From: a virus
Lineage: Duplodnaviria; Caudoviricetes
Length of the DNA stretch: 58,942 nt
IMG/VR virus record: IMGVR_UViG_3300032284_001272
Coordinates: 1 to 58,942 of that record
Reading direction: 5' to 3' (one strand)
Every line of letters begins with the position of its first letter. Within the stretch, counting starts at the first letter, position 1. The translations under genes were made by a program, and so were the position numbers. The notes under the pieces are model-generated. The model saw only the letters and a list, made by a program, of their open reading frames with translations. It made no database searches and had not been told where the DNA came from. Positions 6,091 to 48,500 of the stretch are shown piece by piece.

Positions 6091-6153
6091 TGAATATCCT
6101 TTCCCTATGGTAAGGCGCGAATTGCGCCGCTCTCATGAGGTGCACGAAAGCGA

Positions 6154-6179
6154 ATTAAGGTCAAGCTAACGTATGGTAA
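6154..6179 (-). promoter_or_regulatory. Tandem CtrA-like half-sites over a TTGACC -35 element
   Basis: Minus strand TTTA-N7-TTAG-N7-TTAA (CtrA consensus TTAA-N7-TTAA). Confidence 0.4.
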
Positions 6180-6499
6180 AGCAATCGGGGCCGAGATTTG
6201 CTCGTTTTGAGTATTAGCCTTCGGCGTAAAGCAAGAGCCGTGCCAAGTGACCTATCGTCAATGAGAACAAAACGGGAAATCGGGCAAGAATATTTTTTTG
6301 AACCCTACATAGCCAAAACATGAAAAACCCGCCTACGGGCTTTAAAACGCGATTTTGAGGCATGTCAGAATTTGACGCCCTCGACACGAAACAAAATCGC
6401 CATAACCCGAATTTTGTAATTGACATAGTTCCCGAATAAGCTTTCTATGATGAAACGAGACGCAATTCCGCCTCTCGCATATATAAAGGGATTAAAATT

Positions 6500-26918: not shown

Positions 26919-27637
26919 TGACAACGAGCGGCACATACAATTTTAACCCCAGTTTAGGTGAAGTCGTTCTCAACGCCTTCGCCCGCTGTGGTGTGCGCCG
27001 CACCGCCCTCCTTCAAGAACACATGCAGGACGCAAGGTTTGAAGCGAACCTTATGTTCTCAGAGTGGTCTAATCGCGGGGTAAACCTTTGGAAGGTGGAT
27101 TTGCAAACAATCCCCCTTACGCAGGGCGTTACGCAGTATTTCGCATCAACTAATAGTGTGTCTGATGACGCCGCCAAAACTATTATGGTGCTTGACGCGT
27201 ACATCACGACAAATTCTGGTCAAGAAACTCAATTTGACCGCGTAATTATGCCTATTTCGCGCACGGAATACGCACAAACACCCAACAAAAACCTTCAATC
27301 CCCACCAACTGTGTTCTGGTTTGATCGTTTGATTAACCCAACCATCACATTGTGGCCTGTACCTGACCAAACAGGTGTTTATACGCTTAATTTTTACCGC
27401 GTTATTCAGGTGCAGGATGCGGAGACAACAGGGGCGCAAACCCTTGATATCCCATATCGTTGGCTTGATGCGGCATGTGCGGGGTTAGCTGCTAGATTAG
27501 CTAATATTTACTCTCCTGATAGGTCTAATTTGCTTGAGCAAAAGGCTGCACAGGCGTATGATATAGCCGCTACTCAGGATACGGAAAACGTACCTCTTTA
27601 CATTATGCCGGGGTTGTCCGGGTACTTCAGGACATAA
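26918..27637 (+). CDS. Head-tail adaptor (tail tubular A / P22 gp4-like)
   Basis: MTTSGT, EWSNRGVNLW, ISR.EY...PNK, LWPVPD, GLA..LA. Confidence 0.7.
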   Translation: MTTSGTYNFNPSLGEVVLNAFARCGVRRTALLQEHMQDARFEANLMFSEWSNRGVNLWKVDLQTIPLTQGVTQYFASTNSVSDDAAKTIMVLDAYITTNSGQETQFDRVIMPISRTEYAQTPNKNLQSPPTVFWFDRLINPTITLWPVPDQTGVYTLNFYRVIQVQDAETTGAQTLDIPYRWLDAACAGLAARLANIYSPDRSNLLEQKAAQAYDIAATQDTENVPLYIMPGLSGYFRT

Positions 27638-31250: not shown

Positions 31251-31898
31251 ATGTCAACACTTGCCGTATCCCAAATTACAAACCCATCAACCTACTTTGT
31301 GGGGACTGGTTCAATTTCCGGCACTACCCTCACAATCACCGCCGTTACATCTGGCGTGTTGGCGGTAGGCGCTACAATCACGGGTACGGGTGTAACATCC
31401 TCACCCGCAACAACAATCCAGAGTATTACGCAAGCTACGACGCTCCCATACACATATGTGGTGAATCAATCTCAGACCGTATCATCCACCACGATTAACG
31501 GCACGACGGGTGCTGTCTCCATGACGATGAACGCGAACGGCAGTGTCACGTTTGGCGTCCCATTAATCGCAGTCACATCCACAACTACGACTGTATCTTC
31601 CCCACTCGCGTGGAACAGTGGAAGCTACCAACAATATTCCCTTACCGCCCTTGCGAATGCCCTTACGATTAACGCGGATTCTGGATCACCATTAGACGGT
31701 CAGCGCATGATTTTCCGTATTAATGATAACGGCACTGCCCGCGCATTAACATGGGTAACGTCTGGTTCAGGGGCATTTAGGGCTGTTGGAGTATCTCTCC
31801 CGACCACAACAACCGCCAATAAAGCTACTTATGTTGGGTGCATTTATAATGCCTCTTCATCAACTTGGGATGTCGTTGCTGTGGGGACGCAATCGTAA
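31251..31898 (+). CDS. Tail fibre-associated protein
   Basis: Beta module plus DNGTARALTW...GCIYN...WDVVAV C-terminal domain. Confidence 0.65.
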   Translation: MSTLAVSQITNPSTYFVGTGSISGTTLTITAVTSGVLAVGATITGTGVTSSPATTIQSITQATTLPYTYVVNQSQTVSSTTINGTTGAVSMTMNANGSVTFGVPLIAVTSTTTTVSSPLAWNSGSYQQYSLTALANALTINADSGSPLDGQRMIFRINDNGTARALTWVTSGSGAFRAVGVSLPTTTTANKATYVGCIYNASSSTWDVVAVGTQS

Positions 31899-33550
31899 TG
31901 GCTTTTACTAAGCAAGTATTCCTCACTACTGTTGGCTCTGGAACTTGGACAGTTCCAAGTGACTTTGGCTCGTTGATCAGTGTTGAGACCATTGGTGGTG
32001 GTGGAGGTGGTGGCGGGACTAATGGCGCATCTGCTAGTTCTGGCTCGGGCGGAGGCGGTGGCGCTTATTCAAAAATTACAAGTCTATCTTTAACAGTCGG
32101 CGCATCAATTTCTTATTCTGTTGGCGCAGCTGGTGTCGGCGGGGCAAATGCCTCAGGAACAGCAGGCGGAGACACTTGGTTTAATGGGACGGTTATAACA
32201 TCATGCTCAGTCGGCGCGAAAGGTGGCGGCGGAGGTGGTGCAAGTACGGCTGCAGCAGGTACAGGCGGGGGTTTAGCCTTAGGTACAGGTTTAATAAAAT
32301 ATTCAGGAGGGAACGGAGTCACTGGTGGTTCTCAACCGGGCGGTGGCGGAGGTGCGGCTGGCCCATCTGGGACAGGTGGCAACGCTTCTGGAAAAATAGG
32401 TGGTTCTGCTAACAATAATACAACGGCTGGCGGAGGCACTGATGGGGCAAGTGGTGGCAGCGGAACAGAATTTGACTCGACGCACGGTTGCGGCTCTGGC
32501 GGCGCAAGCGGCGTAAGCAGTGGTGGATCTGGCGGAACATATGGCGGTGCAGGCGGTGGCATAGATCATGCTGGCTCAACATCGACCCCCGGCGGTAATG
32601 GCGCTCAAGGTCTCATCGTCATCACCTACACGCCTGCGGGCACGCTTAAACAGGTGTTTTTGACGACGACAGGCGCAGGAACATGGACTGTTCCATCTGA
32701 TTTTAATTCAAATGCGAATACGATTGAAACAATTGGTGGGGGTGGTTCTGGAGCAGGTGCGCTTGTCGGCACAGCTTATGGAGGAGGCGGCGGCGGAGGC
32801 GCTTACTCAAAAATATCCAATTTATCGTTAAGTGCGGGCGCAAATATTACTTATGCAGTAGGATCTGGAGGAACATCTTCATCTTCGGCTGCGGGAAAAT
32901 CTGGCGGCGATACTTGGTTTAATGGCGCATCTCTTGCTGCGTCATCTGTTGGCGCTAAAGGCGGCGGGGGGGGAACATACGGAATACCAGCAACAGGGGG
33001 AGCGGGTGGAGCGTCCGCATCAGGTATTGGAACGACAAAATATTCCGGTGGCAATGGCGCACCAGTAACGTCATCCAGCAATACAGGCGGCGGTGGCGGT
33101 GCAGCAGGTCCAAATGGTGCGGGTGCGAACGGAGGATCTGGTTGGAATAATACAGGTCAAGGTGGTGGCGGCGGGGGCGGCAGCGGCGGCGGTTCTGCGG
33201 GTTCAATTTATTCAGGAGTTACTGGCGGAGCTGGTGGCAATAATTTTTCAGGATCAGGCGGGGGCAGCGCGGGGAATGCAGGAACCAATGGAGGAGGCGG
33301 TGGAGGCGGCACTAATGGCGGCGGGAATGCAGGTAGCGCTGGCGGTAATGGCATAGAATGGGATAGCACTCATGGAGCTGGTGGAGGCGGTGGCGGAAGT
33401 GCTGTAACTACATCTACTGGCGGAAATGGTGGCCTTTATGGAGGAGGCGGAGGGACAGGAACTAATGCCGCTTCCGGAGCTGGCGCTCAAGGCATCATTG
33501 TCATCAGCTACGTTCCTTTTACCCCCGGTCAATTTTTCTTATTCTTCTAA
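31898..33550 (+). CDS. Glycine-rich tail protein with two tandem domains
   Basis: Two copies of KQVFLTT.G.GTWTVPSDF...GAQG.IVI.Y. Confidence 0.75.
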   Translation: MAFTKQVFLTTVGSGTWTVPSDFGSLISVETIGGGGGGGGTNGASASSGSGGGGGAYSKITSLSLTVGASISYSVGAAGVGGANASGTAGGDTWFNGTVITSCSVGAKGGGGGGASTAAAGTGGGLALGTGLIKYSGGNGVTGGSQPGGGGGAAGPSGTGGNASGKIGGSANNNTTAGGGTDGASGGSGTEFDSTHGCGSGGASGVSSGGSGGTYGGAGGGIDHAGSTSTPGGNGAQGLIVITYTPAGTLKQVFLTTTGAGTWTVPSDFNSNANTIETIGGGGSGAGALVGTAYGGGGGGGAYSKISNLSLSAGANITYAVGSGGTSSSSAAGKSGGDTWFNGASLAASSVGAKGGGGGTYGIPATGGAGGASASGIGTTKYSGGNGAPVTSSSNTGGGGGAAGPNGAGANGGSGWNNTGQGGGGGGGSGGGSAGSIYSGVTGGAGGNNFSGSGGGSAGNAGTNGGGGGGGTNGGGNAGSAGGNGIEWDSTHGAGGGGGGSAVTTSTGGNGGLYGGGGGTGTNAASGAGAQGIIVISYVPFTPGQFFLFF

Positions 33551-34354: not shown

Positions 34355-34382
34355 GATATAATGGTAGCTTTTGGAGCCGATC

Positions 34383-35084
34383 ATGTCTCTTACCTATGCG
34401 ACGTTAACCACTTCATTGGCGAACCTTATCGCCATCCAGTCTTCCGATTCAAATTTTCAAAGCATCCTGCCGGAAATCATTGATTACGCGGAATTGCGCA
34501 TTCAGCGCGATCTTGACCTGCTAAGCACTGTTACGGCGGACACTTCTACGGTTACGACGGCTGGTAGCAGGAATGTCACGATCCCTAATACATTTGTGAC
34601 GGTTCAACAGATCAACGCGCTTACCCCAGCAGGGGCAACAGCCACTTCTGGAACCCGCATAGCCTTAACACCCGTTGCCAAAGAATATATGGATGCCGTG
34701 TACAACACCCCATCCGTTACGGGCATACCCGTGACGTTCGCTATGCTTAGCCAATTTAACGTGATCCTAGGGCCATACCCAAATGATACCTATACCCTTG
34801 AGGTTGTGGGGACGCAGCGTGTTACGCCTCTTTCCGCCACAAATAGTACCAATTTCCTTTCCACATATTTGCCTGACCTATATTTGGCGGCTGCTATGAT
34901 CTTCACATCCGGTTGGATGCGTAATTTTGGGTCGCAGTCTGATAACCCGCAAATGTCCGTATCGTGGGAAGGGCAATACGGTAACCTCCTTAAATCCGCT
35001 ACCGTGGAAGAATTCCGCAAGAAATTCCAAGCGTCCGCGTGGTCATCCATGTCACCGCCAGCAGTGGCTTCTCCTACGAGGTAA
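34383..35084 (+). CDS. Second adaptor / tail tubular protein
   Basis: YAELRIQRDL, LGPYP..TY, FLSTYLPDLYL. Confidence 0.7.
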   Translation: MSLTYATLTTSLANLIAIQSSDSNFQSILPEIIDYAELRIQRDLDLLSTVTADTSTVTTAGSRNVTIPNTFVTVQQINALTPAGATATSGTRIALTPVAKEYMDAVYNTPSVTGIPVTFAMLSQFNVILGPYPNDTYTLEVVGTQRVTPLSATNSTNFLSTYLPDLYLAAAMIFTSGWMRNFGSQSDNPQMSVSWEGQYGNLLKSATVEEFRKKFQASAWSSMSPPAVASPTR

Positions 35085-35087: not shown

Positions 35088-37703
35088 ATGCCATTTGGTT
35101 CGATTAAGTTTACCCCCGGCATTAATGCGGAATATACCCCAACCCTCAATGAGGCGGGGATTTCCGCCAGCAATCTCATACGTTTTCGTGATGGGTTAGT
35201 TGAAAAATTGGGCGGATGGGCGAAATATATTAACACTGCGATGCCATCAAAGGTCCGCGCTTTGAACGCGTGGCAAGATCTGAACACGCAAACCTACCTT
35301 GGGGTAGGTGGGACAAACTCGCTTGGGTATATCTCTAACCTTACACCCAGCAATCCAGCATCTACGTATTACACAAACATTAGCCCAAAATACGACGACC
35401 AAAACGTCGTACCAAAATTCACAACGACCGCTGGGTCATATGTCGTTACCGTAAAAGACACAAACCGCAACGCCACTTCGTATGATACTTTGTGGCTTAA
35501 AACACCCATATCTGTTGGTGGGTTAATCCTGTCTGGTCTGTATGACATAACTTTTGTTGATTCAAACACTTACACGTTTAACGCAAGTTCATACGCGTCT
35601 CAAACAATCAGTTCTACATTTTCTGGAACCGGGACAATATCAAATGGTTCTGGTGGGGCGGGAACGATCCTTAACATTACCGCAGTGTCATCCGGTACTA
35701 TTGGGATTGGGAGTTTCATCACAGGTACTGGCGTATCTTCCAACACATACGTTGAGGCTATCCTCACGGGTTCAGGCGGTGTTGGCACATATTTGGTGAA
35801 CAATTCGCAAAACACATCATCTACCACAATCTCATCCGCATCAGCGGGTGTTGTCCCATATTTCTCTCTCCCCTCCGGATCATCAGTTTGTACATGCGTA
35901 TTCCCTAACCATGGGTTTATTGTAGGCAGCACTGCCACCTTCCTTACCGCCACCACAATCGGCGGCGTGAAGATACTTGGGGATTACCCAGTACAAACCG
36001 TCGTTGATGCGAATACGTTTACGTTTAATACATCCGTCGCGGCCAACTCCACGACAACCCCATCATTTATGAATGGTGGTAACGCCCACTTTTACTATTA
36101 CATAGGATTAGGCCCAGCAACCGCTGGTGGTGGGTATGGTGCTGGACCTTACGGCGTTGGAGCGTATGGTATTGGTGCATCTGGCGCGAACTTTGTGGGC
36201 ACAGCATCTATTTCAAACGGGTCAGGTGGGGCTGGGAATACCCTTAACGTCACAGCCGTATCAACGGGTAACATAGCGATTGGGACAGTCATCACATACC
36301 CTGTTACTATTGGCGGTGTAGCTACAACTGGCACGACTGTTGTGACGGCGTTTGGTAGCGGATCAGGCGGTACTGGTACGTACACAGTCAGCCCTGCCCC
36401 ATCTCAATATATCGCTTCAGAAACGGTGTCGGGAACCACGGTTCACGCGGGTGCAAATACCGTGCAGGAAACTTGGAGTTTGGATAACTGGGGGCAAGCA
36501 CTTGTGGCTATCCCCAAAAATGGCCCGGTATTCTTTTGGGACCCATCTACAGGGTATCAAACAGCCACTGTTATCCCGCAAGCTCCTCCCGTTAATACTG
36601 GCGGGTTTATGGCTATGCCACAACGTCAGCTTGTGACGTATGGGTCTACGTTTGACGGGGTACAAGATCCACTCCTTGTGCGTTGGTGCGATGTAGCGGA
36701 TTACACCGTATGGAACGCCACATCTCAAAACCAAGCCGGATCTTTCAGAATTGGTTCCGGCAGTAAAATCGTGGGTGGGTTGCAAGCTGCGCAACAGGCG
36801 ATCTTGTGGACGGACGTTGACGCTTGGGCGATGCAATATATCCAGCCGCCACTTGTGTATGGGTTCACAAAAATCTCATCCAGTTGCGGGTTACTCGCTC
36901 AAAAGGCGGCGGTTGCTTTTGGCCCCAACGTATATTGGATGTCTCAAAAACAATTCTTCATGATGACTGGCGGCGGTATTTCCCCAATGCCATGCCCTGT
37001 TTGGGATGCTGTTTTTCAAAACTTGGCTACTGGCACGGTTACGGATCAAACCGCTGCGGACTATGGTCAGCCATACACAAACCGTATTTTCGCTGCCACG
37101 AATAGCCAATTCAATGAAGTGACATGGTATTACCCATCAGCTAATGGCGGCGGTGAAGTAGACTCATATGTCAAATTCAATACGGTTGCTAACGTATGGG
37201 ATTACGGGACATTAACGCGCACAGCTTGGATTGACCAGTCTGTCCTTGGATCTCCTATTGGCGCTGGCATTGACGCCTCTGGCAACTATTACATTTACCA
37301 GCATGAGTCGAACGCGAACGGCCCCCTGTATGACGCGGACGGGTCACCCATGAACTCATTCTTCACAAGTGGTTATGCCGCCATATCTAACGGTGAGGAA
37401 TTTGCGTTTGTGGATTACATGATCCCCGACATGAAATGGCAGTTTTACGGGAACGCTTCAAACAGCGCACAGGTGAACATTACCATTAATGTGACGGATT
37501 ACCCGGGCGACATTGGAACTACGACGCTATCCTACAATTCTTACGGACCCTACACCATGACGGCATCTCAAGATGCTCTCCCCAACATACGTTTCAGGGG
37601 CAGGATGATCCAATTTACCATCAGTTCCCCAGCGAACCAAACGGGAGCTTGGTGGAGGATTGGTAATGTTCGTTACCGTTACGCGCAAGATGGGAGAAGG
37701 TAA
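35088..37703 (+). CDS. Tail nozzle / DNA stabilisation protein (P22 gp10-like)
   Basis: IRFRDG..EKLGGW, WSLDNWG, DPLLVRW.D, FNEVTWYYPS, RTAWID, WRIG...DGRR. Confidence 0.8.
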   Translation: MPFGSIKFTPGINAEYTPTLNEAGISASNLIRFRDGLVEKLGGWAKYINTAMPSKVRALNAWQDLNTQTYLGVGGTNSLGYISNLTPSNPASTYYTNISPKYDDQNVVPKFTTTAGSYVVTVKDTNRNATSYDTLWLKTPISVGGLILSGLYDITFVDSNTYTFNASSYASQTISSTFSGTGTISNGSGGAGTILNITAVSSGTIGIGSFITGTGVSSNTYVEAILTGSGGVGTYLVNNSQNTSSTTISSASAGVVPYFSLPSGSSVCTCVFPNHGFIVGSTATFLTATTIGGVKILGDYPVQTVVDANTFTFNTSVAANSTTTPSFMNGGNAHFYYYIGLGPATAGGGYGAGPYGVGAYGIGASGANFVGTASISNGSGGAGNTLNVTAVSTGNIAIGTVITYPVTIGGVATTGTTVVTAFGSGSGGTGTYTVSPAPSQYIASETVSGTTVHAGANTVQETWSLDNWGQALVAIPKNGPVFFWDPSTGYQTATVIPQAPPVNTGGFMAMPQRQLVTYGSTFDGVQDPLLVRWCDVADYTVWNATSQNQAGSFRIGSGSKIVGGLQAAQQAILWTDVDAWAMQYIQPPLVYGFTKISSSCGLLAQKAAVAFGPNVYWMSQKQFFMMTGGGISPMPCPVWDAVFQNLATGTVTDQTAADYGQPYTNRIFAATNSQFNEVTWYYPSANGGGEVDSYVKFNTVANVWDYGTLTRTAWIDQSVLGSPIGAGIDASGNYYIYQHESNANGPLYDADGSPMNSFFTSGYAAISNGEEFAFVDYMIPDMKWQFYGNASNSAQVNITINVTDYPGDIGTTTLSYNSYGPYTMTASQDALPNIRFRGRMIQFTISSPANQTGAWWRIGNVRYRYAQDGRR

Positions 37704-38892: not shown

Positions 38893-38957
38893 CGTAAAGT
38901 TATTTGGTTGGCCTTCAAGCAAAAAATAGTATAAGAAAGAACAAAAGGGGAACAAAT

Positions 38958-40352
38958 ATGCCTACACTAGACGATTACATGAATGACCAGAATGACCCGG
39001 GTTTAGGGTTTGATGGTGCAGAGGTTAGGTCGCCGTTAAATGGAACCCCAATGGGCATCCGTTCGCGTTCGCAACAGCAAATGCTTAGTCAACTTGGCAT
39101 TCAGGGCCAGCCACAGCGCACAGCCCCCGTCCTCCCACGCTTAAATCAGTTCCCCCCATCCTATATTGACAACAATTCTGCGGTTATCCGCGATGATTCA
39201 ACCGGGCCGAAGGCAATAGATTTTCAAAATGTATTGAAAAATGCGTTCGGTGAACAATCGCCCGGTGCCGTTAACCTTGGTGCTGGTCAACAGCTCCCAT
39301 CAAGGCCGCAGCCCCTACCTCCTGTACACCCCGGCTTCCGCCCGGGTGGGCAAGACACATATTCAGAACCGACTTATTCGGCCCCTCCCGAATTTCGTTC
39401 CGGTAGTCAGGATGCGGTTTACGAACCTATGCATGACAGGATCATGCCTCCTAGCCCAACACAGGCGGCACAAGAGGCGCAGCAGGATTTAAGGTCTGCT
39501 TCCGGCACATACACAGCGCCGTATGAACCCGCACAGGTTCAGCCACGCCACCCTATGACGGCTACCCCTAAAACGGCTCGCCCTGTCACAAGAACGCAGC
39601 CCGTGGACCCAAATGCAGGAATGCATAAGGTTTGGTACGACAAGAATATGCATCGCGTTGGTGTGGGTGATAGCGCCCCATCTGGTGTTGCTCCAGATTC
39701 GTTTGATTACGAACCCAACAACATGACCTTTATGCAGAGGCTTGTGAGAGGTGCGTTTGATACCCCTCAGAAGGCTGGCGGCGGTCCTATTGAGATGGCT
39801 CAGAAGTATGCTTCTGGAGGCTCTCCAGAGGCCCATAGCGGCATTATCAACATGGCTGTTGGGGGACGTACCGATCATATCCCAATGAACGTCCTAGAGG
39901 GTTCTTATGTCCTCCCAGCGGATATCGTGTCTGGGTTGGGTGAGGGGAATACCCTCGCTGGTGCCAAAATCGTGGACAATATGTTTAAGGGCGGTCCATT
40001 TGGGTCAACTCCCCCAGCGTCAAAGGCAAGTGTTGATTTCCCAGCACCGCGTTATCAATGGTCGATGGGGCAGGATCAAACTGACCCGTATGGAGTGTTT
40101 AAGAAAATTGAATCTCCCGCAGCAAAGAATGGTGGGGCGATTTACAAAGCCGTAGGTGGGGGGCTTTCCCAACGCGGTAAAATTCCGATTATTGCGGCTG
40201 GCGGGGAATACGTTGTTCACCCGGAAGTCGTTGAAAGGCTTGGTAATGGAGACATGAATAAAGGTCATGAGTATTTGGACAATTTCGTTAAATATGTGCG
40301 CAAACACACTGTGAAAACGCTTAACAAATTACCGCCGCCCAAGAAAAATTAA
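38958..40352 (+). CDS. Internal virion protein with two tape-measure-C-terminal-like (G.YV.P) domains; candidate processing factor
   Basis: GGRTDHIPMNVLEGSYVLPADIVSGLGEG and IPIIAAGGEYVVHPEVVERLG, each preceded by xxGG motifs. Confidence 0.6.
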   Translation: MPTLDDYMNDQNDPGLGFDGAEVRSPLNGTPMGIRSRSQQQMLSQLGIQGQPQRTAPVLPRLNQFPPSYIDNNSAVIRDDSTGPKAIDFQNVLKNAFGEQSPGAVNLGAGQQLPSRPQPLPPVHPGFRPGGQDTYSEPTYSAPPEFRSGSQDAVYEPMHDRIMPPSPTQAAQEAQQDLRSASGTYTAPYEPAQVQPRHPMTATPKTARPVTRTQPVDPNAGMHKVWYDKNMHRVGVGDSAPSGVAPDSFDYEPNNMTFMQRLVRGAFDTPQKAGGGPIEMAQKYASGGSPEAHSGIINMAVGGRTDHIPMNVLEGSYVLPADIVSGLGEGNTLAGAKIVDNMFKGGPFGSTPPASKASVDFPAPRYQWSMGQDQTDPYGVFKKIESPAAKNGGAIYKAVGGGLSQRGKIPIIAAGGEYVVHPEVVERLGNGDMNKGHEYLDNFVKYVRKHTVKTLNKLPPPKKN

Positions 40353-40449: not shown

Positions 40450-40917
40450 GTGTTGACCGATTATAATGTCGAAATTGCTACCCCTGATGATGAAGACCTG
40501 ATCGTCGATATGTTTAAATTGATGCACGAAGAAAACGGCATCTTTGACATTTCAGAAGATAAGGTTCGCCAAATGGTGAGAATGGCGACCTCAAACAAAG
40601 GTGGCATTATTGGGATTATTAAAGGCGATGATTTTTTGGAAGGAATGATTTGCCTTATTATCGACCAGCTTTGGTATTCTGAAGAATGGTTTTTGAGTGA
40701 GCTTTTTAATTTTGTTCACCCTAATTTCCGCCGTTCTTCAAGGGTAAAATCTCTTTTGGCGTTTGCCAAAAAATGTTCGACTGAGGTTCACCTCCCCCTC
40801 TTAATTGGTGTCGTCAGCAATGAGCGCACAGAGGCAAAAGTGAAACTTTATGAAAGACAGTTCCCAAAAGCGGGTGCTTTCTTCATGTATAATGGCGACT
40901 ACGCAAGGATGAGCTAA
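40450..40917 (+). CDS. GNAT-fold acetyltransferase
   Basis: FVHPNFRRS motif A-like segment, KLYER; typical position before ejection genes. Confidence 0.65.
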   Translation: MLTDYNVEIATPDDEDLIVDMFKLMHEENGIFDISEDKVRQMVRMATSNKGGIIGIIKGDDFLEGMICLIIDQLWYSEEWFLSELFNFVHPNFRRSSRVKSLLAFAKKCSTEVHLPLLIGVVSNERTEAKVKLYERQFPKAGAFFMYNGDYARMS

Positions 40918-40918: not shown

Positions 40919-43900
40919 ATGGGTAGTTTTTTAAGTGGCCTTTTTGGCGGCAGCAACAGCACATCCCAAACCACAACGAAAACGCCAAATTCGGCGGTTC
41001 TCGCTGATTACCTTGCTATGCTTAAGCAGGGTCAAACGTTATCTTCGCAACCTTATCCAGACTATACTCCATCCGCTGCAGCGGCAGCTCAGTCCAAATA
41101 CGACCCTAGCCTTGTCGCGGCTATGACACCGCAACAATATCAAGCTATGTCCGGGATGAATAACCTGCCCGGTTATTCACAACCATACATGCAAGCGGCA
41201 GCCGGGTTGGCGGGGTTGGCAGCATCCCCAATTGAGATGCAACAATTTTCCCCCGGGGCAGTAAATCAATACCTATCCCCATACATGCAGGACGTTATGG
41301 GTTCTGCTGTCGCGAACATTAATGAGACGAATGCCCAACAGCAACAACAAGTGTTGGGCAATACAATCGCTCGCGGCGCTTTCGGCGGAGATCGTGGATC
41401 TATCGCCCAATCGGAACTTGCCCGTCAGCAAAACCTCGCGAATAACGCGACATTGGCGAATATCGCGAATACGGGATATGGTCAGGCGCTTGGTGAATTT
41501 AATAACCAGCAGCAACAAAATATGCTGGCTCAATTGCAGTCTCGTGAACTTGCGGGCAATGCGGCTGGCCAATTTGCGAACATTGGTACGCAGGGTCAGA
41601 ACGCCTATTTGCAGGGATTGCAAGCGCAGTATGGCGCGGGAACGGCTCAGCAACAGCAAGAACAGGCAAGATTAAGCACCGCCTACCAGCAGTATTTGAA
41701 TCAACAGCAATACCCATACCAGCAGCTTAACTGGTATAGTGGATTGCTGAACGGAGCAGCAAGTGGCATGGGCGGCACAACAACCGCTCAAATTCCACAG
41801 CCTAGCCTCGCCAACCAGCTCATTGGCGGTATCGGCATGATTGGCGCGATGAACGGTAGTGGCAACAATTATTTCAATAGTGGGCTTAGCTCCCTTGGAA
41901 ATGTCGCAAGTTCAATTGGCAGCGGGATTAGTAGCGCCGCCAGCGGTGTGGGTAATTGGTTGAGCGGTCTTGGATTTGCTGAAGGTGGTCGCGTCGGCTA
42001 TGCTGACGGAGGATCGCCTACGATTACTCCTGATCAAGCTTATAAAAATTATGTGGCTTTGGCTCAGTCTGGAACAGCAACCCCATCTGAACTTGATGCC
42101 GCTTATCAACAGTATTTGTCTGTTGAGCAGAATTATGTAGCACCACCAACAGCTACACCTGCGGCTACCCCTACAACTCCACCAATGACAAAGAATCAGC
42201 AAAATATTGCGGATCAAGTCAATAAATTTGGCGCTGGAATTTCCTCTTTGTCTAGCGGCAATAATTATAATGGCGGGAATGGCGGTCGCGGTAATACTTC
42301 CATTGATAATGGTAATGCTGACCCAAGTTCTGGAAGCGTAAATTCTAACACCGTTAAAAACCCAGCTGATGCCGCTATTGGCCTCCCGGGAACTGGCGAT
42401 GTTGGGTCCGGCAACGCATCCAACCCAAGCTATGGCACAGGGCAGACAATTGGCGGACTTGTCGGCGGAACTGCTGGGTTGATTGGCGGCGGGATTCCGG
42501 GTGCTATCAATGGCTATAGGTTGGGAACAGAGGCTGCTGGATTTATCACTGGTCCTGAGACCCTCCCGACCCCAAGCTCCACATACTCTTACCCCGGTGC
42601 TGGCCAGCCTGAAACTCAAATTAACAATACCGGAAATGGAGTCATAACGGGTACTGAAAACCCGTTTAATGGCACCGTTCAAGCAAAATATAATTCCCTC
42701 TCACCTGATGTTGGCGTTCAACCAAATGCGCCTACAGCGGGAGTTCCAACTTCGGATTCATTAAAGCTTTTCAGCCAAATTGCCCAGCAGGAATCGGGAG
42801 CGCAACAATTTGATAAAAAAGGCAACCCAATAATTGATACTGTACCGGGTGCAAACGGTGAATATGCAATTGGGTTCTCTCAAATACAGCCATCAACTGC
42901 GGCTGCTGCTGCGGCTGCGGCTGGGCTTCCATTTGACGCTACGCGCCTTGCCACAGACCCTAATTACAATGCCGCTATTGGTCAGGCTTATACGTCACAA
43001 TTGGTAGATAAGTATAACGGGAATACAACTCTTGCAGCGGCAGCGTATAACGCTGGCGAAGGAAATGTTGCAAATGTGATTAAAATGTTTAACGGCGATT
43101 TGAATGCCGCCGCAAAATATGTGTCTGAAAGAGGTTACGTTAAGGAAGTTGCTGGTCAGCCTATTAGCCAACCTACAATTCAAGATTTCTCTCAAATCTC
43201 TCCGGCGCTGTCTGGACTTCAGCAAGGTAATATTATCACGCAATTGGGTGATACAGGGTTATCAAATCAACCGATTATGACTGCGCCAGAAAGTACTGGG
43301 GCACAACAAAACGCATCCTCAGATGTTTCTAACCCATACGGGTTTGCGAGCAACCTAAACGTTAATGGTTTAGGAGGGGTTACTATGGCGGATAGCAACC
43401 CTTCAGGTAGTGGATTAGTCACGGATCGAACCATGACGGCTCCGGCAGAAGCTGGGAATTATGGATTTGGATCATTTGGATTTAATGGACCTCAACCCAA
43501 CGGTGGAAATGATTTAGGTGGTAATAGCAATTATTCTGCTGCTGGAGGCCAAAATTCTCCATCGGAAAGCAGTGGTGGACCGGGCGGCGGAAGCAGTGGC
43601 GGATGGGGCAGCTACGGCATGAGTACAAACGATGGCGGTGCTAGCGTTGGTAGCTATGGTAATGATAGCAGCGGAAGTGATAGCAGCGGTAGCGGCGGTG
43701 AAAAGCGCGGCGGTCTTGTCACGCGTCATCACCACTACGACAGCGGTGGTGTTGTCGCTCCTTCAGCTATGCCACAGCAAATCTCATTACAGTATGGTAT
43801 GCCAACACAGGCAGACCTGAAACGTTTTGCTCAATCCATTATGGGCAGCGGGGCAGGTCAGAACAACGCACAGGCGGAAGCTTTGGCGGCAAGCGGTGTT

Positions 43901-45544
43901 GTGCCTCAACAACAAGCGTCTGGTGGCCGCATTCACAAGCAGGTCGCGGGGCCAGTCGTGTGGTCTGGCGGAGACATGATGCCGGATCAGTCTTTTATCC
44001 CAACTGGACCTGACGCAGTTTTGGAAGAGCCAAAATATCAGCCATCCGTAGAGGTTAAACCATCTGGTTTGATTAACCGTACCAGTGGTGCGTATGACCC
44101 TACTATGGGCGGCGCTCCTCCTCAAAAACAAGACCTCTTGGAGCATCCAGCGTCTTCGAGAACTGAACCAGTCATGCCTAAGATTGACCTTGCTCCAGCA
44201 AAGGGTCCGGAAGAGGATTGGTCTGTTGCACCTATTGAAGAAGAGCCAAAGAAAAAAGGCGTTCAAGTTGCTCAGAACGTGAACCCTAAGGTGATGTCTG
44301 ATGCTGAACCTCAAGGCCAGCTTGGCGTTATGAGGGCTGAAGATCCATATCGTCTTGCTGCGTTCCAAGCGTTTGCCCGTCTTGCTGGCACACCGGGTTC
44401 ATTCGGTGTCGGCATGGCTGCGGCTGCGGACCAGTATGCGAAGACACTTATGGCTGGTCAGGAAGCACAACGTAAGCAGTTTGAAACGCTCGCTACGGCT
44501 GGTGAAAAGGGCGCTCAAGCGGATTATCTCCGTACTCAGGCTATGATGGGCCGTATCTCTGATAAGGGATTTGGTAGCGTCATCTCTACTCAAATGCCAG
44601 ATGGAAGCATCAAACAAGAACGTGTTATTGTTCCCCCGGGTCAAGCAGTTACGGCTGGCGGTCAGGGTGAAGTATCAACGTCACTTGGTGGTGCTGGCAC
44701 TCCATCTGCAACACCTCCTCAGGCGTTTTCTCAAGGCCCGGCTGCTGGTGCTGCTGATCCTCAGGAAGCTCTATACAAGCAAGCCGCCCTTACCCCATAT
44801 ATCGCTCAAGATATTAATCAGGCTGCTATCAGTCCTGAAATTCAAGCGAAAAAATACACTGACTTTGACTCTGAAGCGCAAAAACTTGCGAACGCTTCAA
44901 GGCAAAACCAGAACACACTGTATAATCAAATCAAGGCTTTGTCTGCGATCCCTGATGATGGATTTATGAAAGCTGGAGCTGGCGCTAACGTTCGTTATTT
45001 GGCGGCGAATTATTTCAATCAAGTTATCCCCGGACTTGGGGCTACGCCTGATAATATCGCAAATGCTGAAGTTGCGAATAAAATCGCAAACTATACTGCG
45101 CAAAGCACAGGTAATGATGCGGCGGCGGTATGGAAAAATGCGCTCGCTAAGTCACAGCCGGGTATTGAGTTGCAGAAATCCACATCAAATGAATTGCTTG
45201 CTTCTGCCCTTGTAAATCAAAAGCGAGAAGTGGATCGCGGGACATTCTCCAACTGGTATGGCGGTCAGACCTATCAACATGGTGGATCTGGAAACTCCGT
45301 GTTTGATAAGATTAATCCACCCGCTTTGTATCAGCGCGACCAGTTAATATTCCAAGACATGATGAACAATAAGTCGAAGACGTTGCCTGACGTTAATAAT
45401 CCGTCGAAGCAGGTTCTTGAAAACCCTGTGACGGCGGTATTGAACGGAAGAATGACGCCAGCAGAATTTGATGCGTGGGCCGATAAGACATACGGATCAC
45501 GTTACGGAATTAAGAATCTGCACCTTAGTGACTACCTCCGTTAA
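40919..45544 (+). CDS. DNA ejection/transfer protein with an internal lytic transglycosylase domain
   Basis: Q-rich N-terminus with GAFGGDR; QQESG, GFSQIQPSTA and AAAYNAGEG SLT motifs (about 42770-43150); paired GG motifs. Confidence 0.8.
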   Translation: MGSFLSGLFGGSNSTSQTTTKTPNSAVLADYLAMLKQGQTLSSQPYPDYTPSAAAAAQSKYDPSLVAAMTPQQYQAMSGMNNLPGYSQPYMQAAAGLAGLAASPIEMQQFSPGAVNQYLSPYMQDVMGSAVANINETNAQQQQQVLGNTIARGAFGGDRGSIAQSELARQQNLANNATLANIANTGYGQALGEFNNQQQQNMLAQLQSRELAGNAAGQFANIGTQGQNAYLQGLQAQYGAGTAQQQQEQARLSTAYQQYLNQQQYPYQQLNWYSGLLNGAASGMGGTTTAQIPQPSLANQLIGGIGMIGAMNGSGNNYFNSGLSSLGNVASSIGSGISSAASGVGNWLSGLGFAEGGRVGYADGGSPTITPDQAYKNYVALAQSGTATPSELDAAYQQYLSVEQNYVAPPTATPAATPTTPPMTKNQQNIADQVNKFGAGISSLSSGNNYNGGNGGRGNTSIDNGNADPSSGSVNSNTVKNPADAAIGLPGTGDVGSGNASNPSYGTGQTIGGLVGGTAGLIGGGIPGAINGYRLGTEAAGFITGPETLPTPSSTYSYPGAGQPETQINNTGNGVITGTENPFNGTVQAKYNSLSPDVGVQPNAPTAGVPTSDSLKLFSQIAQQESGAQQFDKKGNPIIDTVPGANGEYAIGFSQIQPSTAAAAAAAAGLPFDATRLATDPNYNAAIGQAYTSQLVDKYNGNTTLAAAAYNAGEGNVANVIKMFNGDLNAAAKYVSERGYVKEVAGQPISQPTIQDFSQISPALSGLQQGNIITQLGDTGLSNQPIMTAPESTGAQQNASSDVSNPYGFASNLNVNGLGGVTMADSNPSGSGLVTDRTMTAPAEAGNYGFGSFGFNGPQPNGGNDLGGNSNYSAAGGQNSPSESSGGPGGGSSGGWGSYGMSTNDGGASVGSYGNDSSGSDSSGSGGEKRGGLVTRHHHYDSGGVVAPSAMPQQISLQYGMPTQADLKRFAQSIMGSGAGQNNAQAEALAASGVVPQQQASGGRIHKQVAGPVVWSGGDMMPDQSFIPTGPDAVLEEPKYQPSVEVKPSGLINRTSGAYDPTMGGAPPQKQDLLEHPASSRTEPVMPKIDLAPAKGPEEDWSVAPIEEEPKKKGVQVAQNVNPKVMSDAEPQGQLGVMRAEDPYRLAAFQAFARLAGTPGSFGVGMAAAADQYAKTLMAGQEAQRKQFETLATAGEKGAQADYLRTQAMMGRISDKGFGSVISTQMPDGSIKQERVIVPPGQAVTAGGQGEVSTSLGGAGTPSATPPQAFSQGPAAGAADPQEALYKQAALTPYIAQDINQAAISPEIQAKKYTDFDSEAQKLANASRQNQNTLYNQIKALSAIPDDGFMKAGAGANVRYLAANYFNQVIPGLGATPDNIANAEVANKIANYTAQSTGNDAAAVWKNALAKSQPGIELQKSTSNELLASALVNQKREVDRGTFSNWYGGQTYQHGGSGNSVFDKINPPALYQRDQLIFQDMMNNKSKTLPDVNNPSKQVLENPVTAVLNGRMTPAEFDAWADKTYGSRYGIKNLHLSDYLR

Positions 45545-45555: not shown

Positions 45556-48500
45556 ATGGCTGAAGCAAATTGGTCTGAAGTTTTTGGTGATACCCCCGGC
45601 CCAGATTTTGGGGATGAGAAACCGCAACAAAAAACAACGGATTGGGGCCAAGTATTTGGTGACAAGCCCGGCCCCACAGATACGTCTGAAACAGCTACTG
45701 CGAAGGACGAGTATGAAAAGCTTGTCCAGTCAAAGGAAGCGGAAGCTAACAAGATCATGAAGAGTCTTGGCGTTCAAGGTGCTATTGAGGCGGGTATACA
45801 AAGCACACCAATCGTCGGGCCTATTGTTCAGGGTATTGGCGCAACGGTAGGCGCTGCCCTGCCTGAAAGCCTTGGGTTCGCGACTGGTGACACTTACAGC
45901 AAAAGAAAAGAAGACCTCTACGCTCAGTTTGAAGCAATGCAACGAGCTGCGGAAAAACAACACCCATACGTTAAGGCGGGAACGGAAGTTGCGTCATCCC
46001 TTGTTTTACCAGCGGGTGGGATTTCTGCTGTTGGTGAAGCTGCTACAGGTTCTAAACTTCTTGGTCTTGGGCTAGAAGGCGCTACGTATGGCGGCGCTTC
46101 CGCCCTCGCTGAAAAAGCTGGGTCAAAGCCAGAGTCGGAGCAACAAGGGGTAGGGTCATCCGCCCTCCTTGGCGGCGAACTTGGCCTTGGGCTTGGCGCT
46201 GCTGGTGCAACAGTGGGTAAGGCTATTGAGAAGTTTGCCCCTGAATGGATGTCGGCTGTTGGCAATAAAGATGATTACCAAGTCAGTCAGCTTGCGAAAG
46301 CTTATGACAAGGACGTTAAAGCTGGCAACGTCAGTATGTCTTTTGATGACTGGATGGCGGCGCATAGTAATGGCCAACCAGTCAATTTGGCTGACCTTGG
46401 CGGTCCAAACGTTCAGAAATTCGTAACAAAAACATTTAAGAACCAGCCTGATCTTGCGGATCAATTCCGCGATACCCTTTTGGGTCGCTCACAAGACGCT
46501 TCTTCTCGATTTTCGGATTTTGCTCAAAGTTTGACTGATAGCGACCTTAATGCGTCACAAATAATTGATGAAGCAAAGCAGGAAGCTGTTAGGGCGCAAA
46601 GACAAGCTTATGCAGCCGCCTACGAGCCTGAAAATGGTTCCGGGACATGGAATCCTCAATGGAGTAGGTGGATCAATCTTCCTGAAGTGAAAAACGCTAT
46701 TATTAAAACAGAAGATGATCTGGTTAATGACGCGCAACACAGGAATTTGGACCCCAACGGGCGATTCCCTGAAATAAATCAAGTAAGAAGTCCATTTACT
46801 AGCGTTGATACGCCTAATGGTGGATTTAAACTTGTCATGAGCAGCCCACAGGCTGTGAACATGAAGTACATTGATTTTCTGCAACGCAACTTGAATGACG
46901 CGATTGATGCGGTTCCATCCAGTGCGCAAGGCGGCGTTAAAGATAGCCTTATCAATATTCGTAAAAAGATTATATCAGATGTCACTAATCCTGATAGCGA
47001 TTACTATAATGCCGCATATGCTAATGCATACAATTCTACGCCGCTATTCCGTGGGCAGACTGACGCTTTCTCATATGGGAAAAACCTTCTTTCAAGTATC
47101 CGAGATCCTGTAAAGGCTAGCCGTATCGCGAATGAAACTGGCATGATGACCGACGCGGAAAAAGATTTCGCGATGAAGGGTGTTATGTCCGATATGCTTG
47201 CGAAGGCGACGAAACCTGACGGTAGTTTGGACACAAGAAAATTGCAACAATACTTCATGCAAGGCAACCCACGCCAAGCGATGATGAATGCTTTTGGTGG
47301 GCAAAAATATGCAGATTTGAAGCGTTTCGTGGATGCTGAATCCGTTATGGCGGAAGCATACGCAAAATCCAGACAGCTTGGGAAAGTAACATCTACAGTT
47401 CCAAGGGATATGTCCACGTTGTTGAGTTATTTGTTTTTTGACAAATATGCTCTCGCGAAGGTTGTGGCTGATTACGGCAATAAATTTATGAGTGATCGTT
47501 ACGCCAAAAATATGGTGCAGCGTCTTATGTCTGATGACCCTCAGTCGATTCGATCCGCATATGATGACATCATCAACAACAAGCCAGTTCGCGGTGCATT
47601 CACCAATATGTTGAGCCGATTTGTCCCGGTCGCAGGGGGGCAAGCAGGCATACAACCCATGGGCAGACAGACACAGACAAACCCAGTTGAAGATTACGTG
47701 AACTCGCAGCTTCAAGCGGCGGGGATTAAACGTGCGTTTGGTGGTCGTGTCGCTTATAAAAAAGGAGGAAGGGTCGAGAAAGGAGAAGGTGGGTCTCTTT
47801 CTGAATTAGAACAATATATGCGTGATTTAATGGGGGATTACGGAGCAAAACGCGTTCAACGTGCTGCTGATGAGATTCCGGGTTTAGAAAAAATGTATAC
47901 TCCTGAAGCAATCAAAAAAGCTTTCGGAGAAAAAAATACTGTTCTCACTTCAATGCCGACAAAGAAATTTTTATCTTTTGCGCAGCCATTGGAAAATAAT
48001 GGTTATTATTACGAAGATGACCGTGGGAATAAACTTGACCAAGAGCAATACGTAAGGTTTTTAGCAGAAAAAGCTAAAACAACCGGGTTATATGATGTTC
48101 CTTATTTGGGCGTGAAAAACCTTGAAGAAAAAGGAAAAAAAATTGTTGCTGGCGCTCCTTATATTTACAAACATGAAGGAAGGCACCGAAACCTTGGGAT
48201 GTTAAGAGAAGGCATTCCGACGGGTTTGGCAAGAATTTTCCCGAACGAAGAAACAATGGTTAAAAACAAAATTGGGAAAAGATTAGAACATCCTGAGTTT
48301 GTTTCAAAAATGAATGATCTTATGGGGCCGTCACGTATGGTTTCCCCAGAAACATCTGTATCTTCATTTTCCAAAAATCCTGATATATTGCATTCTTTAC
48401 AAAAACAAGAAATGCCAGAATTTTATGAATCAGGTGGCCGTATCCATAAGGATGATGGTGGGGGTACAGACACAAGTGGTGGTCCGGGGTCAGCACCGGG

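What the first reader, a model, noticed from the sequence alone, without database searches (positions are those of the whole stretch)
39770..40352. Duplicated tape-measure-C-terminal-like domain: candidate GG-motif protease or reader
Seen: two related segments, GGRTDHIPMNVLEGSYVLPADIVSGLGEG and KIPIIAAGGEYVVHPEVVERLGNG, each follow a GG pair (KAGGG..YASGG; AKNGG..KAVGG). They resemble the 'SDSIP..LS.GEYV' module of siphophage tape-measure tails. One copy keeps the Asp (RTDH) but has GSYV; the other has GEYV but lacks the Asp stretch. Inference: the two copies may complement each other to form one active site, and this gene next to the ejection genes is the best candidate for the enzyme acting on the junctions. 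I recognise no conventional prohead protease in the genome.
Basis: partly seen in the sequence, partly recalled or inferred. Interest (0 to 1): 0.72.

Follow-up and report, generated by a model that had tools for sequence, protein, structure and literature searches.

The report
Duplicated tape-measure module in ejection protein
The end of a podophage ejection-cassette protein is a tandem, complementarily decayed copy of a small unannotated module also found near the tip end of tape-measure proteins such as lambda gpH, so it may bear on how those proteins mature; nothing yet shows it is a protease.

Summary
Residues 290-482 of the ORF at 38904/38958-40352 hold two homologous units of about 50 aa (BLASTP E 1e-6; family profile against profile E 3e-9).

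The domain is a very large phage family with no annotation. A profile search found 5403 cluster representatives. It is always at the extreme C-terminus, behind 0-1007 variable residues, and a few relatives carry ART or Nudix domains there.

In 77 of 80 related loci the gene lies between the nozzle gene and a GNAT gene plus two giant ejection proteins. The other three loci end too early to tell.

It occurs in 421 phage records and includes lambda gpH 727-800. It is flanked by A-x-G-G far more often than chance predicts.

The two copies decayed in a complementary way. R-T-D is kept only in copy 1 (342 of 344) and the Glu only in copy 2 (344 of 344). This suggests one composite site.

I found no protease fold or family. 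The protease reading rests only on a parallel from papers: lambda gpH and T5 pb2 are cleaved, by an unknown agent, just upstream of the equivalent region.

My best reading is a conserved C-terminal working module of an ejected protein. Its biochemical role remains open.

The parts
38958..40352 (+). Gene for the 464-aa protein (482 aa if read from TTG 38904), the first gene of the ejection cassette
   Evidence: ORF list. The database gene call of 464 aa is 100% identical. ATG 38958 has AAGGGG upstream.
38958..39770 (+). Variable N-terminal region rich in Pro, Gln and Ser, with no recognised domain
   Evidence: No real Pfam match: the only hit was a chance-level one (LPMO_AA14, E 0.017, 14.8 bits against a cut-off of 27). 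No PHROG match. Not conserved among relatives; the extension ranges from 0 to 1007 aa. The Atlas model of the whole protein has pLDDT 0.49.
39771..39821 (+). Two A-x-G-G motifs upstream of unit 1 (aa 290-294 and 303-306)
   Evidence: The first GG is invariant or nearly so in 67 long homologues.
39861..39989 (+). Unit 1 (aa 320-362): strand, turn, strand, helix, G-x-G-N loop, helix. It keeps R-T-D.
   Evidence: AlphaFold2 model with pLDDT 85-93 over the unit. Conservation counts.
40119..40163 (+). A-x-G-G motifs in the disordered linker between the units (aa 406-411 and 415-420)
   Evidence: GG is nearly invariant in alignments A1 and A2. pLDDT is under 50.
40173..40328 (+). Unit 2 (aa 424-475): same fold as unit 1, with a longer last helix. 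It keeps the Glu of GGEY, plus H, D and R.
40326..40349 (+). Conserved C-terminal tail (consensus K-L-P-G-P-x-R-D), always the very end of the protein
   Evidence: Alignment A1. 349 of 353 family proteins end within 2 residues of the end of the profile.
40450..40917 (+). GNAT-like acetyltransferase gene, the invariable downstream neighbour. It is the positional counterpart of T7 IVP-A.
   Evidence: phrog_1249, E 5.4e-7. Adjacent in 77 of 80 loci; the other 3 loci end too soon. Hardies et al., PMC4819975, passages read.
40919..45544 (+). 1541-aa ejection protein with an SLT domain and A-x-G-G-R-V/I motifs
   Evidence: Pfam SLT, E 1.8e-14; phrog_4287 DNA ejection protein. Motifs.
45556..49521 (+). 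1321-aa ejection protein with GG motifs, one of them fixed in position about 45 aa from the C-terminus
35088..37703 (+). Nozzle (tubular tail B-like) protein gene upstream of the cassette
   Evidence: phrog_3287, E 1.6e-60. Synteny.

Best explanation
The C-terminal 170-190 aa of this protein is a tandem duplication of a unit of about 50 aa: a beta-hairpin, a short helix, a G-x-G-[ND] loop and a second helix, flanked by A-x-G-G motifs.

The same unit occurs once near the tip end of siphophage tape-measure proteins, including lambda gpH 727-800. It also occurs once at the C-terminus of the first protein of other podophage ejection cassettes.

Here the two copies have each lost the half of the conserved polar residues that the other copy keeps. 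I infer that they pack as a pseudo-dimer carrying one composite polar site. Copy 1 contributes Arg-Thr-Asp, Pro-Ala-Asp and Glu-Gly-Asn-Thr. Copy 2 contributes Glu, His, Asp and Arg.

I read the domain as the conserved working end of a protein that belongs to the internal-virion (ejection) protein set. It is held by its free C-terminus, acts when the ejection proteins are assembled or released, and carries a variable N-terminal spacer or cargo.

Shown here: the duplication, the family, the architecture, the synteny and the homology to the tape-measure module. Inferred: the pseudo-dimer, the composite site, presence in the virion, and the role in ejection.
For: Duplication.

Family size: 5403 representatives at E <= 1e-3 and 1194 at E <= 1e-30.

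Architecture: the domain is strictly C-terminal in 349 of 353 proteins, behind N-terminal extensions of 0-1007 aa; 132 proteins are essentially the domain alone. N-terminal domains seen in relatives are ART-PolyVal (P0114 and P0262, with a weak hit in P0343), NUDIX (P0115) and DUF7178 (P0339), out of 77 long members scanned.

Synteny: the order adaptor, nozzle, (small ORF), this gene, GNAT, SLT ejection protein, second giant protein is seen in 80 related IMG/VR loci. GNAT is adjacent in 77, and the other 3 end at the contig edge. The same order holds in MW202675, where the homologue is a 193-aa domain-only protein.

Structure: the AlphaFold2 model gives the same strand-strand-helix-loop-helix pattern twice, with pLDDT 85-94.

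Single-unit forms sit at the extreme C-terminus of the first gene of ejection-like cassettes in Caulobacter phage GB2A, Synechococcus phage MinM2 and phage DSL-LC04.

Link to tape-measure proteins: a tblastn with the DSL-LC04 unit hits 421 phage records, and most of the 60 rows listed lie under genes annotated as tape-measure proteins. An HMM built from the podophage domain alone scores MinM2 52.8, GB2A 31.5 and DSL-LC04 12.1 bits, against a best of 4.9 in 2000 shuffles. An HMM built from tape-measure units alone scores DSL-LC04 48.7, GB2A 31.0 and MinM2 11.7 bits, against a best shuffle of 6.2. GB2A against phiE125 gp15 gives BLASTP E 2e-9. An independent HMM of 75 IMG/VR modules scores lambda gpH 727-800 at 25.6 bits (best shuffle 9.0) and hits both window repeats, at 5.0 and 8.7 bits.

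Complementary conservation.

Tape-measure proteins and podophage internal virion proteins are both expelled ahead of the DNA (established knowledge; passages of PMC12617516 and PMC4819975 read).
Against: No proteomics shows that this protein is in the virion. Its closest positional analogue, T7 IVP-A, is a non-structural assembly factor (PMC4819975), so the neighbour could be one too.

About fifteen polar residues are invariant or nearly so (R33, T34, D35, D51, S54, E58, N60, T61, K66, E146, D161, H166, D170, R177). That many conserved polar residues looks more like an enzyme or ligand site than a plain docking module.

Only 5 of the 77 long relatives scanned carry a recognisable N-terminal domain, so the cargo reading rests on few cases.

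The direct HMM link from the podophage domain to true tape-measure proteins is marginal: phiE125 5.9 bits, lambda 2.5 bits. The homology rests on intermediates.

The tape-measure-type module folded alone gave a poor model, with pTM 0.32 and no predicted hairpin.
Confidence: 0.5

Rival explanations
1. Maturation-cleavage module. The unit with its A-x-G-G flanks catalyses or directs proteolytic cuts at basic/aromatic-A-x-G-G junctions. It would act in cis in tape-measure proteins, and possibly in trans on the GG-motif-rich ejection proteins of this phage.
For: A-x-G-G is tightly coupled to the unit. It lies within 30 aa upstream in 67 of 78 instances and within 70 aa downstream in 61 of 78. From the rest of the same proteins, 4.8% and 11.5% would be expected (16 of the 80 loci did not match my core pattern and are not counted).

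Lambda gpH is cut in the Gly-rich region near its C-terminus, giving a fragment of about 14 kDa. Both the site and the catalyst are stated to be unknown (PMC12617516, passages). A 14.0-kDa fragment would start near residue 719, and the module match starts at 727.

T5 pb2 is cut after R1127 (PMC10038345, passage), and the next residues in my translation are AEGG.

GG[RK][VILA] is enriched in the window's internal proteins: 8 observed against 0.45 expected, 4 against 0.51, and 2 against 0.38. It is absent from about 81,000 aa of nozzle, adaptor and small-ORF homologues.

Many polar residues are invariant, and the complementary decay of the two copies fits one catalytic site.
Against: No peptidase family, catalytic motif or fold was detected.

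No residue is conserved across all forms of the unit. Lambda gpH lacks the Ser/Thr-Asp, copy 2 lacks it, and copy 1 lacks the Glu.

T5 pb2 gives no HMM match to the unit, so the T5 parallel rests on position and pattern only.

No data show cleavage of any protein of this phage. By recall, lambda also encodes gpK with a JAB-type peptidase domain, which is another candidate for the gpH cut.
Confidence: 0.2
2. Reader or assembly hub. The pseudo-dimer binds the short A-x-G-G-[RK]-[VI] strands scattered through the ejection proteins and the basic protein next to the portal, tying the internal proteins together for packaging and release.
For: The motif is specific to internal proteins.

It is fixed in position about 45 aa from the C-terminus of the 1321-aa protein's homologues. 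All 25 homologues listed carry a GG[RK][VIL] motif, in 24 of them near the C-terminal end, and the tails are shown.

The unit is flanked by the same motif in cis in tape-measure proteins. This suggests that the motif and the unit pack together.
Against: In the AlphaFold2 model the domain's own linker motifs are disordered and not docked, with pLDDT under 50. No binding data exist.
Confidence: 0.15
3. Cell-wall module. [quoted passage not shown]
For: The T5 pb2C region that starts at AEGG is described as a metallopeptidase motif 'shown to have muralytic activity' (PMC10038345, passage). It has the same position and size relative to the hub-binding C-terminal helix as the unit has in lambda gpHC. 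One Atlas neighbour cluster, found by predicted structure, is 95% LysM-bearing (a lead only).
Against: T5 pb2 is not detectably homologous to the unit. PMC12617516 states that lambda virions contain no such enzyme. The cassette already has an SLT domain. No peptidoglycan-hydrolase family or fold matched.
Confidence: 0.1

Closest known systems
Lambda tape-measure protein gpH, residues about 727-800 (N-terminal part of the cleaved fragment gpHC)
   Same: It has the same module: A-x-G-G, hairpin with G-E-F-V, helix, G-x-G loop, helix, A-x-G-G. An HMM that excludes lambda scores it at 25.6 bits against 9.0 for the best shuffle, and it aligns collinearly with phiE125 gp15. It lies near the C-terminal end of a protein expelled ahead of the DNA. 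Its function is unknown and it is unresolved in cryo-EM (PMC12617516).
   Different: Lambda has a single copy and lacks the Ser/Thr-Asp motif. The copy sits about 60-125 aa from the C-terminus and is followed by a hub-binding helix. It is part of an 853-aa ruler protein of a long-tailed phage. The direct HMM score from the podophage domain is not significant (2.5 bits).
Tape-measure proteins of Burkholderia phage phiE125 (gp15), Mycobacterium phage Halo (gp16) and Arthrobacter phage Persistence (gp18), among 421 phage records
   Different: The unit is single or in several dispersed copies; I saw up to 4 in one IMG/VR protein. It lies 100-430 aa from the C-terminus and is not a fused pseudo-dimer. 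No Pfam family covers it.
T7-type internal virion protein operon (IVP-A/gp13, gp14, gp15, gp16)
   Same: The gene lies directly downstream of the tubular tail B (nozzle) gene. A GNAT-like gene sits where IVP-A is, and giant proteins follow, one with a lytic transglycosylase domain (PMC4819975).
   Different: This gene lies upstream of the GNAT gene and has no counterpart in T7. hhalign of the domain family against T7 gp13 and gp14, and of the GNAT family against gp13, gave nothing.
T5 pb2C, the 92-residue C-terminal fragment of the T5 tape-measure protein
   Same: The fragment starts at an A-x-G-G motif after the mapped cleavage site. That motif is followed by a short Gly-Glu hairpin-like stretch and then a hub-binding helix.
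   Different: No HMM match to the unit. The resemblance is by eye and by position only.
MuF-type head proteins and polyvalent proteins (Iyer et al. 2017, PMC5512222)
   Same: It works in a similar way: a conserved virion-module domain is fused to varied enzymatic domains (ART, Nudix) that are presumed to be delivered with the DNA.
   Different: There is no sequence relation to MuF, and no Pfam hit. The conserved domain here is C-terminal. Recognisable cargo is rare, in 5 of 77 members scanned.

Membership tests
Any described peptidase family (prohead proteases, S24/S26, M23, C39, clan CE) | Match to a curated family model | tested here: not met
   No peptidase hit in Pfam, PHROGs or NCBIfam for the window protein. 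No peptidase hit in Pfam for 37 domain-only and 77 long relatives.
Any described peptidase family | Peptidase-like fold | tested here: inconclusive
   Foldseek against PDB: best E 1.9. VIA-align against 48,161 chains: best Z 3.2, with no peptidase among the rows.
Any described peptidase family | A catalytic residue set conserved in all members | tested here: inconclusive
   Many residues are invariant within the two-unit family, but none is shared by all forms of the unit (lambda, copy 1, copy 2). No known catalytic set was recognised.
A-x-G-G-flanked tape-measure C-terminal module (undescribed; defined here) | Sequence similarity of the unit to tape-measure units | tested here: met
   Via intermediates: podophage HMM to GB2A 31.5 bits and MinM2 52.8 bits; tape-measure HMM to GB2A 31.0 bits and DSL-LC04 48.7 bits. 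The tape-measure-module HMM hits both window repeats, 14.8 bits in total, E 4.5e-6 for 4 sequences.
A-x-G-G-flanked tape-measure C-terminal module | A-x-G-G motifs on both sides of the unit | tested here: met
   Motifs at aa 290-294 and 303-306 before unit 1, and at 406-411 and 415-420 before unit 2. Coupling in tape-measure proteins is 67 of 78 and 61 of 78.
A-x-G-G-flanked tape-measure C-terminal module | Host protein is a length-determining tape-measure protein | tested here: not met
   No TMP Pfam family matched. The genome is podophage-like, with an SU10-type portal and adaptor and a nozzle.
T7-type internal virion protein cassette | Position downstream of tubular tail B, with a GNAT-like IVP-A and giant proteins, one carrying a muralytic domain | tested here: met
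   Literature definition from PMC4819975.
T7-type internal virion protein cassette | Homology of this protein to T7 gp13 or gp14 | tested here: inconclusive
   hhalign of the family against single T7 sequences gave probability under 2%. Single-sequence targets are weak tests.
T7-type internal virion protein cassette | Presence in the virion and ejection into the host | not testable with these tools
   Needs proteomics or labelling.
MuF / polyvalent cargo-delivery proteins | MuF (Phage_Mu_F) domain | tested here: not met
   No such Pfam hit in any of the 114 family members scanned.

The most novel reading that the evidence does not exclude
The A-x-G-G-flanked hairpin-helix unit is a self-contained maturation element of ejected phage proteins. 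As a dimer, or as the fused pseudo-dimer seen here, it forms one Asp/Glu site that cuts, or positions for cutting, junctions of the type basic/aromatic-A-x-G-G. This would explain the long-unexplained processing of lambda gpH into gpH* and gpHC, and the T5 pb2 cut at R1127. It would also mean that the GG-motif-rich giant ejection proteins of this podophage group are matured at those motifs, with the two-unit protein as the trans-acting enzyme.
Probability: 0.13. Interest if true: 0.85.

Novelty: new variant of a known kind. Interest (0 to 1): 0.6.

Why it matters
Podophage ejection proteins and siphophage tape-measure proteins are poorly understood proteins that open the way for the DNA. This finding ties them together through one small, very widespread module. 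It has 5403 cluster representatives in the two-unit form and 421 phage records in the single form. No database names it, and I found no paper that describes it.

In lambda the module lies in the part of gpH that is cut off by an unknown agent, at an unmapped site, and that cryo-EM does not resolve. The complementary decay of the two copies here points to specific residues, the Asp of copy 1 and the Glu of copy 2, which correspond to the G-E-F-V glutamate of gpH. These can be mutated in lambda to ask whether the module controls that cleavage. That makes an old open question directly testable.

Tried and rejected
1. Complex prediction of the domain (alignment A1) with the conserved C-terminal 75 aa of the 1321-aa ejection protein (alignment A3). 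The result was no verdict (ipSAE 0.00 and 0.02; controls not run). It says nothing either way.

2. Solved-structure searches by sequence profile found only chance hits at E >= 0.18. Searches by fold found nothing. BFVD returned only uncharacterised proteins of uncultured phages.

3. The ESM Atlas gave unnamed viral clusters. The nearest named one was crAss cargo protein 1 at 0.84, below the level that means anything.

4. T5 pb2 as a homologue: no HMM hit with four different unit models. I keep it only as a positional parallel.

5. T7 gp13 and gp14 as homologues of the domain or of the GNAT neighbour: hhalign gave nothing.

6. The HHTV-2 hit lies on the strand opposite to the annotated gene, so I discarded it.

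7. The 'tape measure' labels on GB2A gp065 and the DSL-LC04 759-aa protein appear to be automatic annotations. Their contexts are nozzle plus ejection-like cassettes.

8. By recall, the hairpin resembles the Ser-bearing hairpin of LexA and signal-peptidase enzymes. I rejected this because the position that would hold the nucleophile is Ser, Asp or His among units, and no fold match exists.

9. A helix-hairpin-helix DNA-binding reading of the G-x-G loop had no support from Pfam at E <= 5.

10. AlphaFold2 of a single tape-measure-type module (alignment A5) gave pTM 0.32 and did not predict the hairpin. This is uninformative, though it is compatible with a need for oligomerisation.

11. Literature searches for the motif strings and for tape-measure self-cleavage found nothing relevant.

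Supplementary figures of the T5 paper (fig. S5G) could not be seen. I took the cleavage site from the main text.
Full report
WHAT IS THERE

The window is a complete-looking podophage genome of 58.9 kb. It encodes small and large terminase subunits, an SU10-type portal, a major capsid protein, two SU10-type adaptor paralogues, a nozzle (tubular tail B-like) protein, an SLT-bearing giant ejection protein and an endolysin.

The finding lies in the last 193 codons of an ORF at 38904-40352 on the + strand. The likely start is ATG 38958. It has AAGGGG 8 nt upstream, and the public gene call of 464 aa begins there. I number residues from the 482-aa reading so that they match the finding.

Both quoted segments and all four GG pairs are present.
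- The two halves of the region align at 37% identity over 60 columns, BLASTP E 1e-6.
- Family profiles of the two repeats align with hhalign probability 96% and E 3.1e-9.
- AlphaFold2 with a 37-sequence alignment predicts the same pattern twice: a 7-residue strand, a turn, a 3-residue strand, a helix, a loop and a helix. pLDDT is 85-94 over the repeats, and the linker between them is disordered.

In this register the GG of AAGGEYV is the hairpin turn of unit 2 and corresponds to EG in unit 1. The A-x-G-G motifs upstream of each unit are separate elements.

A LARGE, UNNAMED FAMILY WITH A FIXED ARCHITECTURE

- The word-indexed search gave 332 near-length and 528 shorter relatives.
- The exhaustive profile search gave 5403 cluster representatives at E <= 1e-3 and 1194 at E <= 1e-30.
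- No Pfam or NCBIfam family and no solved-structure sequence matches, and the window protein, the only member scanned there, matches no PHROG.
- In 353 family proteins held locally, the domain ends within 2 residues of the C-terminus in 349, within 10 in the other 4, and never further in.
- The N-terminal extension ranges from none to 1007 aa. 132 proteins are essentially the domain alone. In 49 proteins the inter-repeat linker is expanded, by up to 294 aa.
- Of 77 long members scanned with Pfam, two carry ART-PolyVal with a third weak hit, one carries NUDIX and one DUF7178. The rest carry nothing recognisable.

CONTEXT

In 80 related IMG/VR loci the order is adaptor, nozzle, often a small ORF, this gene, a GNAT-like gene, the SLT ejection protein, and a second giant protein.
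- The GNAT gene follows directly in 77 loci. The other three loci end at the contig edge.
- The one relative in the phage record collection, MW202675, has the same order with a 193-aa domain-only protein.
- Hardies et al. (PMC4819975, passages read) report that T7 IVP-A (gp13) and syntenic genes of other podophages match acetyltransferases, and that IVP-A is a non-structural assembly factor. The neighbour here is therefore the positional IVP-A. My own hhalign against the T7 gp13 sequence showed nothing.
- No prohead protease was detectable among the roughly 35 larger ORFs scanned. By recall, that is normal for podophages that use a scaffold, such as T7 and P22.

THE UNIT IS THE TAPE-MEASURE MODULE

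Each repeat, used alone in tblastn, hits one and the same place at the extreme C-terminus of a protein in Caulobacter phage GB2A and in Synechococcus phage MinM2. Repeat 1 also gives a weak hit (E 3) at the C-terminus of a DSL-LC04 protein. In all three phages that protein is the first gene of a nozzle-plus-ejection-like cassette. Two of them are auto-annotated 'tape measure'.

The DSL-LC04 unit in turn hits 421 phage records. By organism these include Mycobacterium 114, Gordonia 88, Arthrobacter 42, Burkholderia 39, Vibrio 32 and Pseudomonas 28. Most of the 60 rows listed lie under genes annotated as tape-measure proteins. I checked three:
- phiE125 gp15, about 100 aa from the C-terminus.
- Halo gp16, about 430 aa from the C-terminus.
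- Persistence gp18, about 370 aa from the C-terminus.
Pfam covers other parts of these proteins but not the unit.

Homology runs through a chain of links.
- An HMM of the podophage repeats alone scores MinM2 52.8, GB2A 31.5 and DSL-LC04 12.1 bits (best of 2000 shuffles 4.9). It scores true tape-measure proteins only marginally.
- An HMM of four tape-measure units scores DSL-LC04 48.7, GB2A 31.0 and MinM2 11.7 bits (best shuffle 6.2).
- GB2A against phiE125 gives BLASTP E 2e-9.
- Lambda gpH aligns collinearly with phiE125 gp15, E 5e-4.
- An independent HMM of 75 IMG/VR modules scores lambda gpH 727-800 at 25.6 bits (best shuffle 9.0). It hits both window repeats.
- T5 pb2 gives no hit with any model.

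THE GG MOTIFS BELONG TO THE MODULE

Sixty-four of the 80 IMG/VR loci matched my core pattern and gave 78 distinct unit instances. The other 16 loci did not match and are not counted.
- A-x-G-G lies within 30 aa upstream in 67 instances and within 70 aa downstream in 61.
- The rest of the same proteins contain 0.183 motifs per 100 aa, which predicts 4.8% and 11.5%.
- The window protein has the motif before each unit. The GG is invariant or nearly so in the family.

Isolated motifs of the form GG[RK][VILA] are enriched in the window's internal proteins:
- 8 observed against 0.45 expected in the 705-aa basic protein after the portal.
- 4 against 0.51 and 2 against 0.38 in the two giant proteins.
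- 2 against 0.06 in a His-rich 132-aa protein.

The motif is absent from about 81,000 aa of nozzle, adaptor and small-ORF homologues. One motif sits at a fixed place about 45 aa from the C-terminus of the 1321-aa protein's homologues.

COMPLEMENTARY DECAY

In 344 distinct family members, copy 1 keeps Gly-Arg-Thr-Asp (342), Pro-Ala-Asp, Ser, Glu-Gly-Asn-Thr and Lys. At the hairpin it has Ser or Ala and never Glu.

Copy 2 keeps Gly-Gly-Glu (344 of 344), His (336), Asp (344) and Arg (343). It is unconserved where copy 1 has Arg-Thr-Asp.

Single units in most tape-measure proteins carry both the Ser/Thr-Asp and the Gly-Glu. The simplest reading is an inference: single units act as symmetric oligomers with sites built across an interface, and the fused pair has kept only one such site.

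WHAT THE LITERATURE ADDS

PMC12617516 (passages read) states the following.
- The site and the catalyst are unknown.
- Residues about 690-817 of the fragment are unresolved.
- Residues 818-849 bind the hub protein gpI.

A 14.0-kDa fragment would begin near residue 719, and the module match begins at 727. PMC10038345 (passage) places the T5 pb2 cut after R1127. In my translation the fragment begins with AEGG. These are parallels, not evidence about this phage.

READING

The best-supported account (confidence 0.5) is that the domain is the conserved C-terminal working module of a member of the internal-virion (ejection) protein set. It is evolutionarily the same module as in the tip-proximal part of tape-measure proteins, fused here into a pseudo-dimer with one composite polar site and carrying a variable N-terminal part.

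What that site does is open.
- Cleavage at A-x-G-G junctions (0.2) has only circumstantial support. No protease family or fold was found.
- Binding of the motifs as an assembly hub (0.15) and a cell-wall role (0.1) remain possible.

The complex prediction gave no verdict. No solved fold resembles the model.

VERDICT

The feature is a real, widespread, undescribed module, and it offers a testable link to an old question in lambda tail maturation.

Noticed in passing
window 15556-17673 (+): A 705-aa, very basic, Gly-rich protein is encoded right after the portal. It has about 14 motifs of the type K/R/H-x-G-G-R/K-A/V (GG[RK][VILA]: 8 observed against 0.45 expected) and a Pro/Met-rich C-terminal part. 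It has no family match. It may be an internal head or DNA-associated protein.
   Followed up: partly
window 22778-23176 (+): A 132-aa His-rich protein with three copies of the same basic G-G-K/H-V motif. Function unknown.
   Followed up: no
window 49294-49518 (+) and loci L004-L080: The last 55 aa or so of the 1321-aa ejection protein form a conserved module: a GG motif, a helix, and then a T-x-P-L-L-N..D-D-x-I-V-x-A-L stretch. Its final helix resembles the N-terminal leader helix of many domain-only relatives of the finding's protein.
   Followed up: partly
window 17900-18298 (+): A GroES-like co-chaperonin gene lies inside the head module (phrog_3188 E 8e-12; Pfam Cpn10 E 7e-5).
   Followed up: no
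window 26918-27637 and 34371-35084 (+): Two paralogous SU10-type adaptor genes are separated by about 7 kb of tail-fibre-like genes. Between them lies a 561-aa protein that is 35% glycine (31865-33550, Pfam Gly_rich_2).
   Followed up: no
relatives P0164, P0174, P0229, P0238 and the MW202675 193-aa protein (L001 8103-8684): Many domain-only relatives begin with a conserved leader of about 40 aa (M-P-L-x-K-G..N-I-x-E-L..P-x-x-Q-A-V-A-I-A-L). It gives one weak Pfam DUF6496 hit (E 0.019). The window protein lacks it.
   Followed up: no
L159 (IMG/VR), 2356-6303; also L157 and L176: Single tape-measure-like proteins carry 2-4 dispersed copies of the A-x-G-G-flanked module.
   Followed up: no
L116 (Azospirillum sp. 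A26 plasmid pA26_3, 62.6 kb); L103, L104, L114: Relatives of the domain lie on a 62.6-kb record deposited as a plasmid, and inside large chromosomal contigs of Bosea, Ancylobacter and Acidisoma. This suggests phage-plasmid or prophage relatives in Alphaproteobacteria.
   Followed up: no
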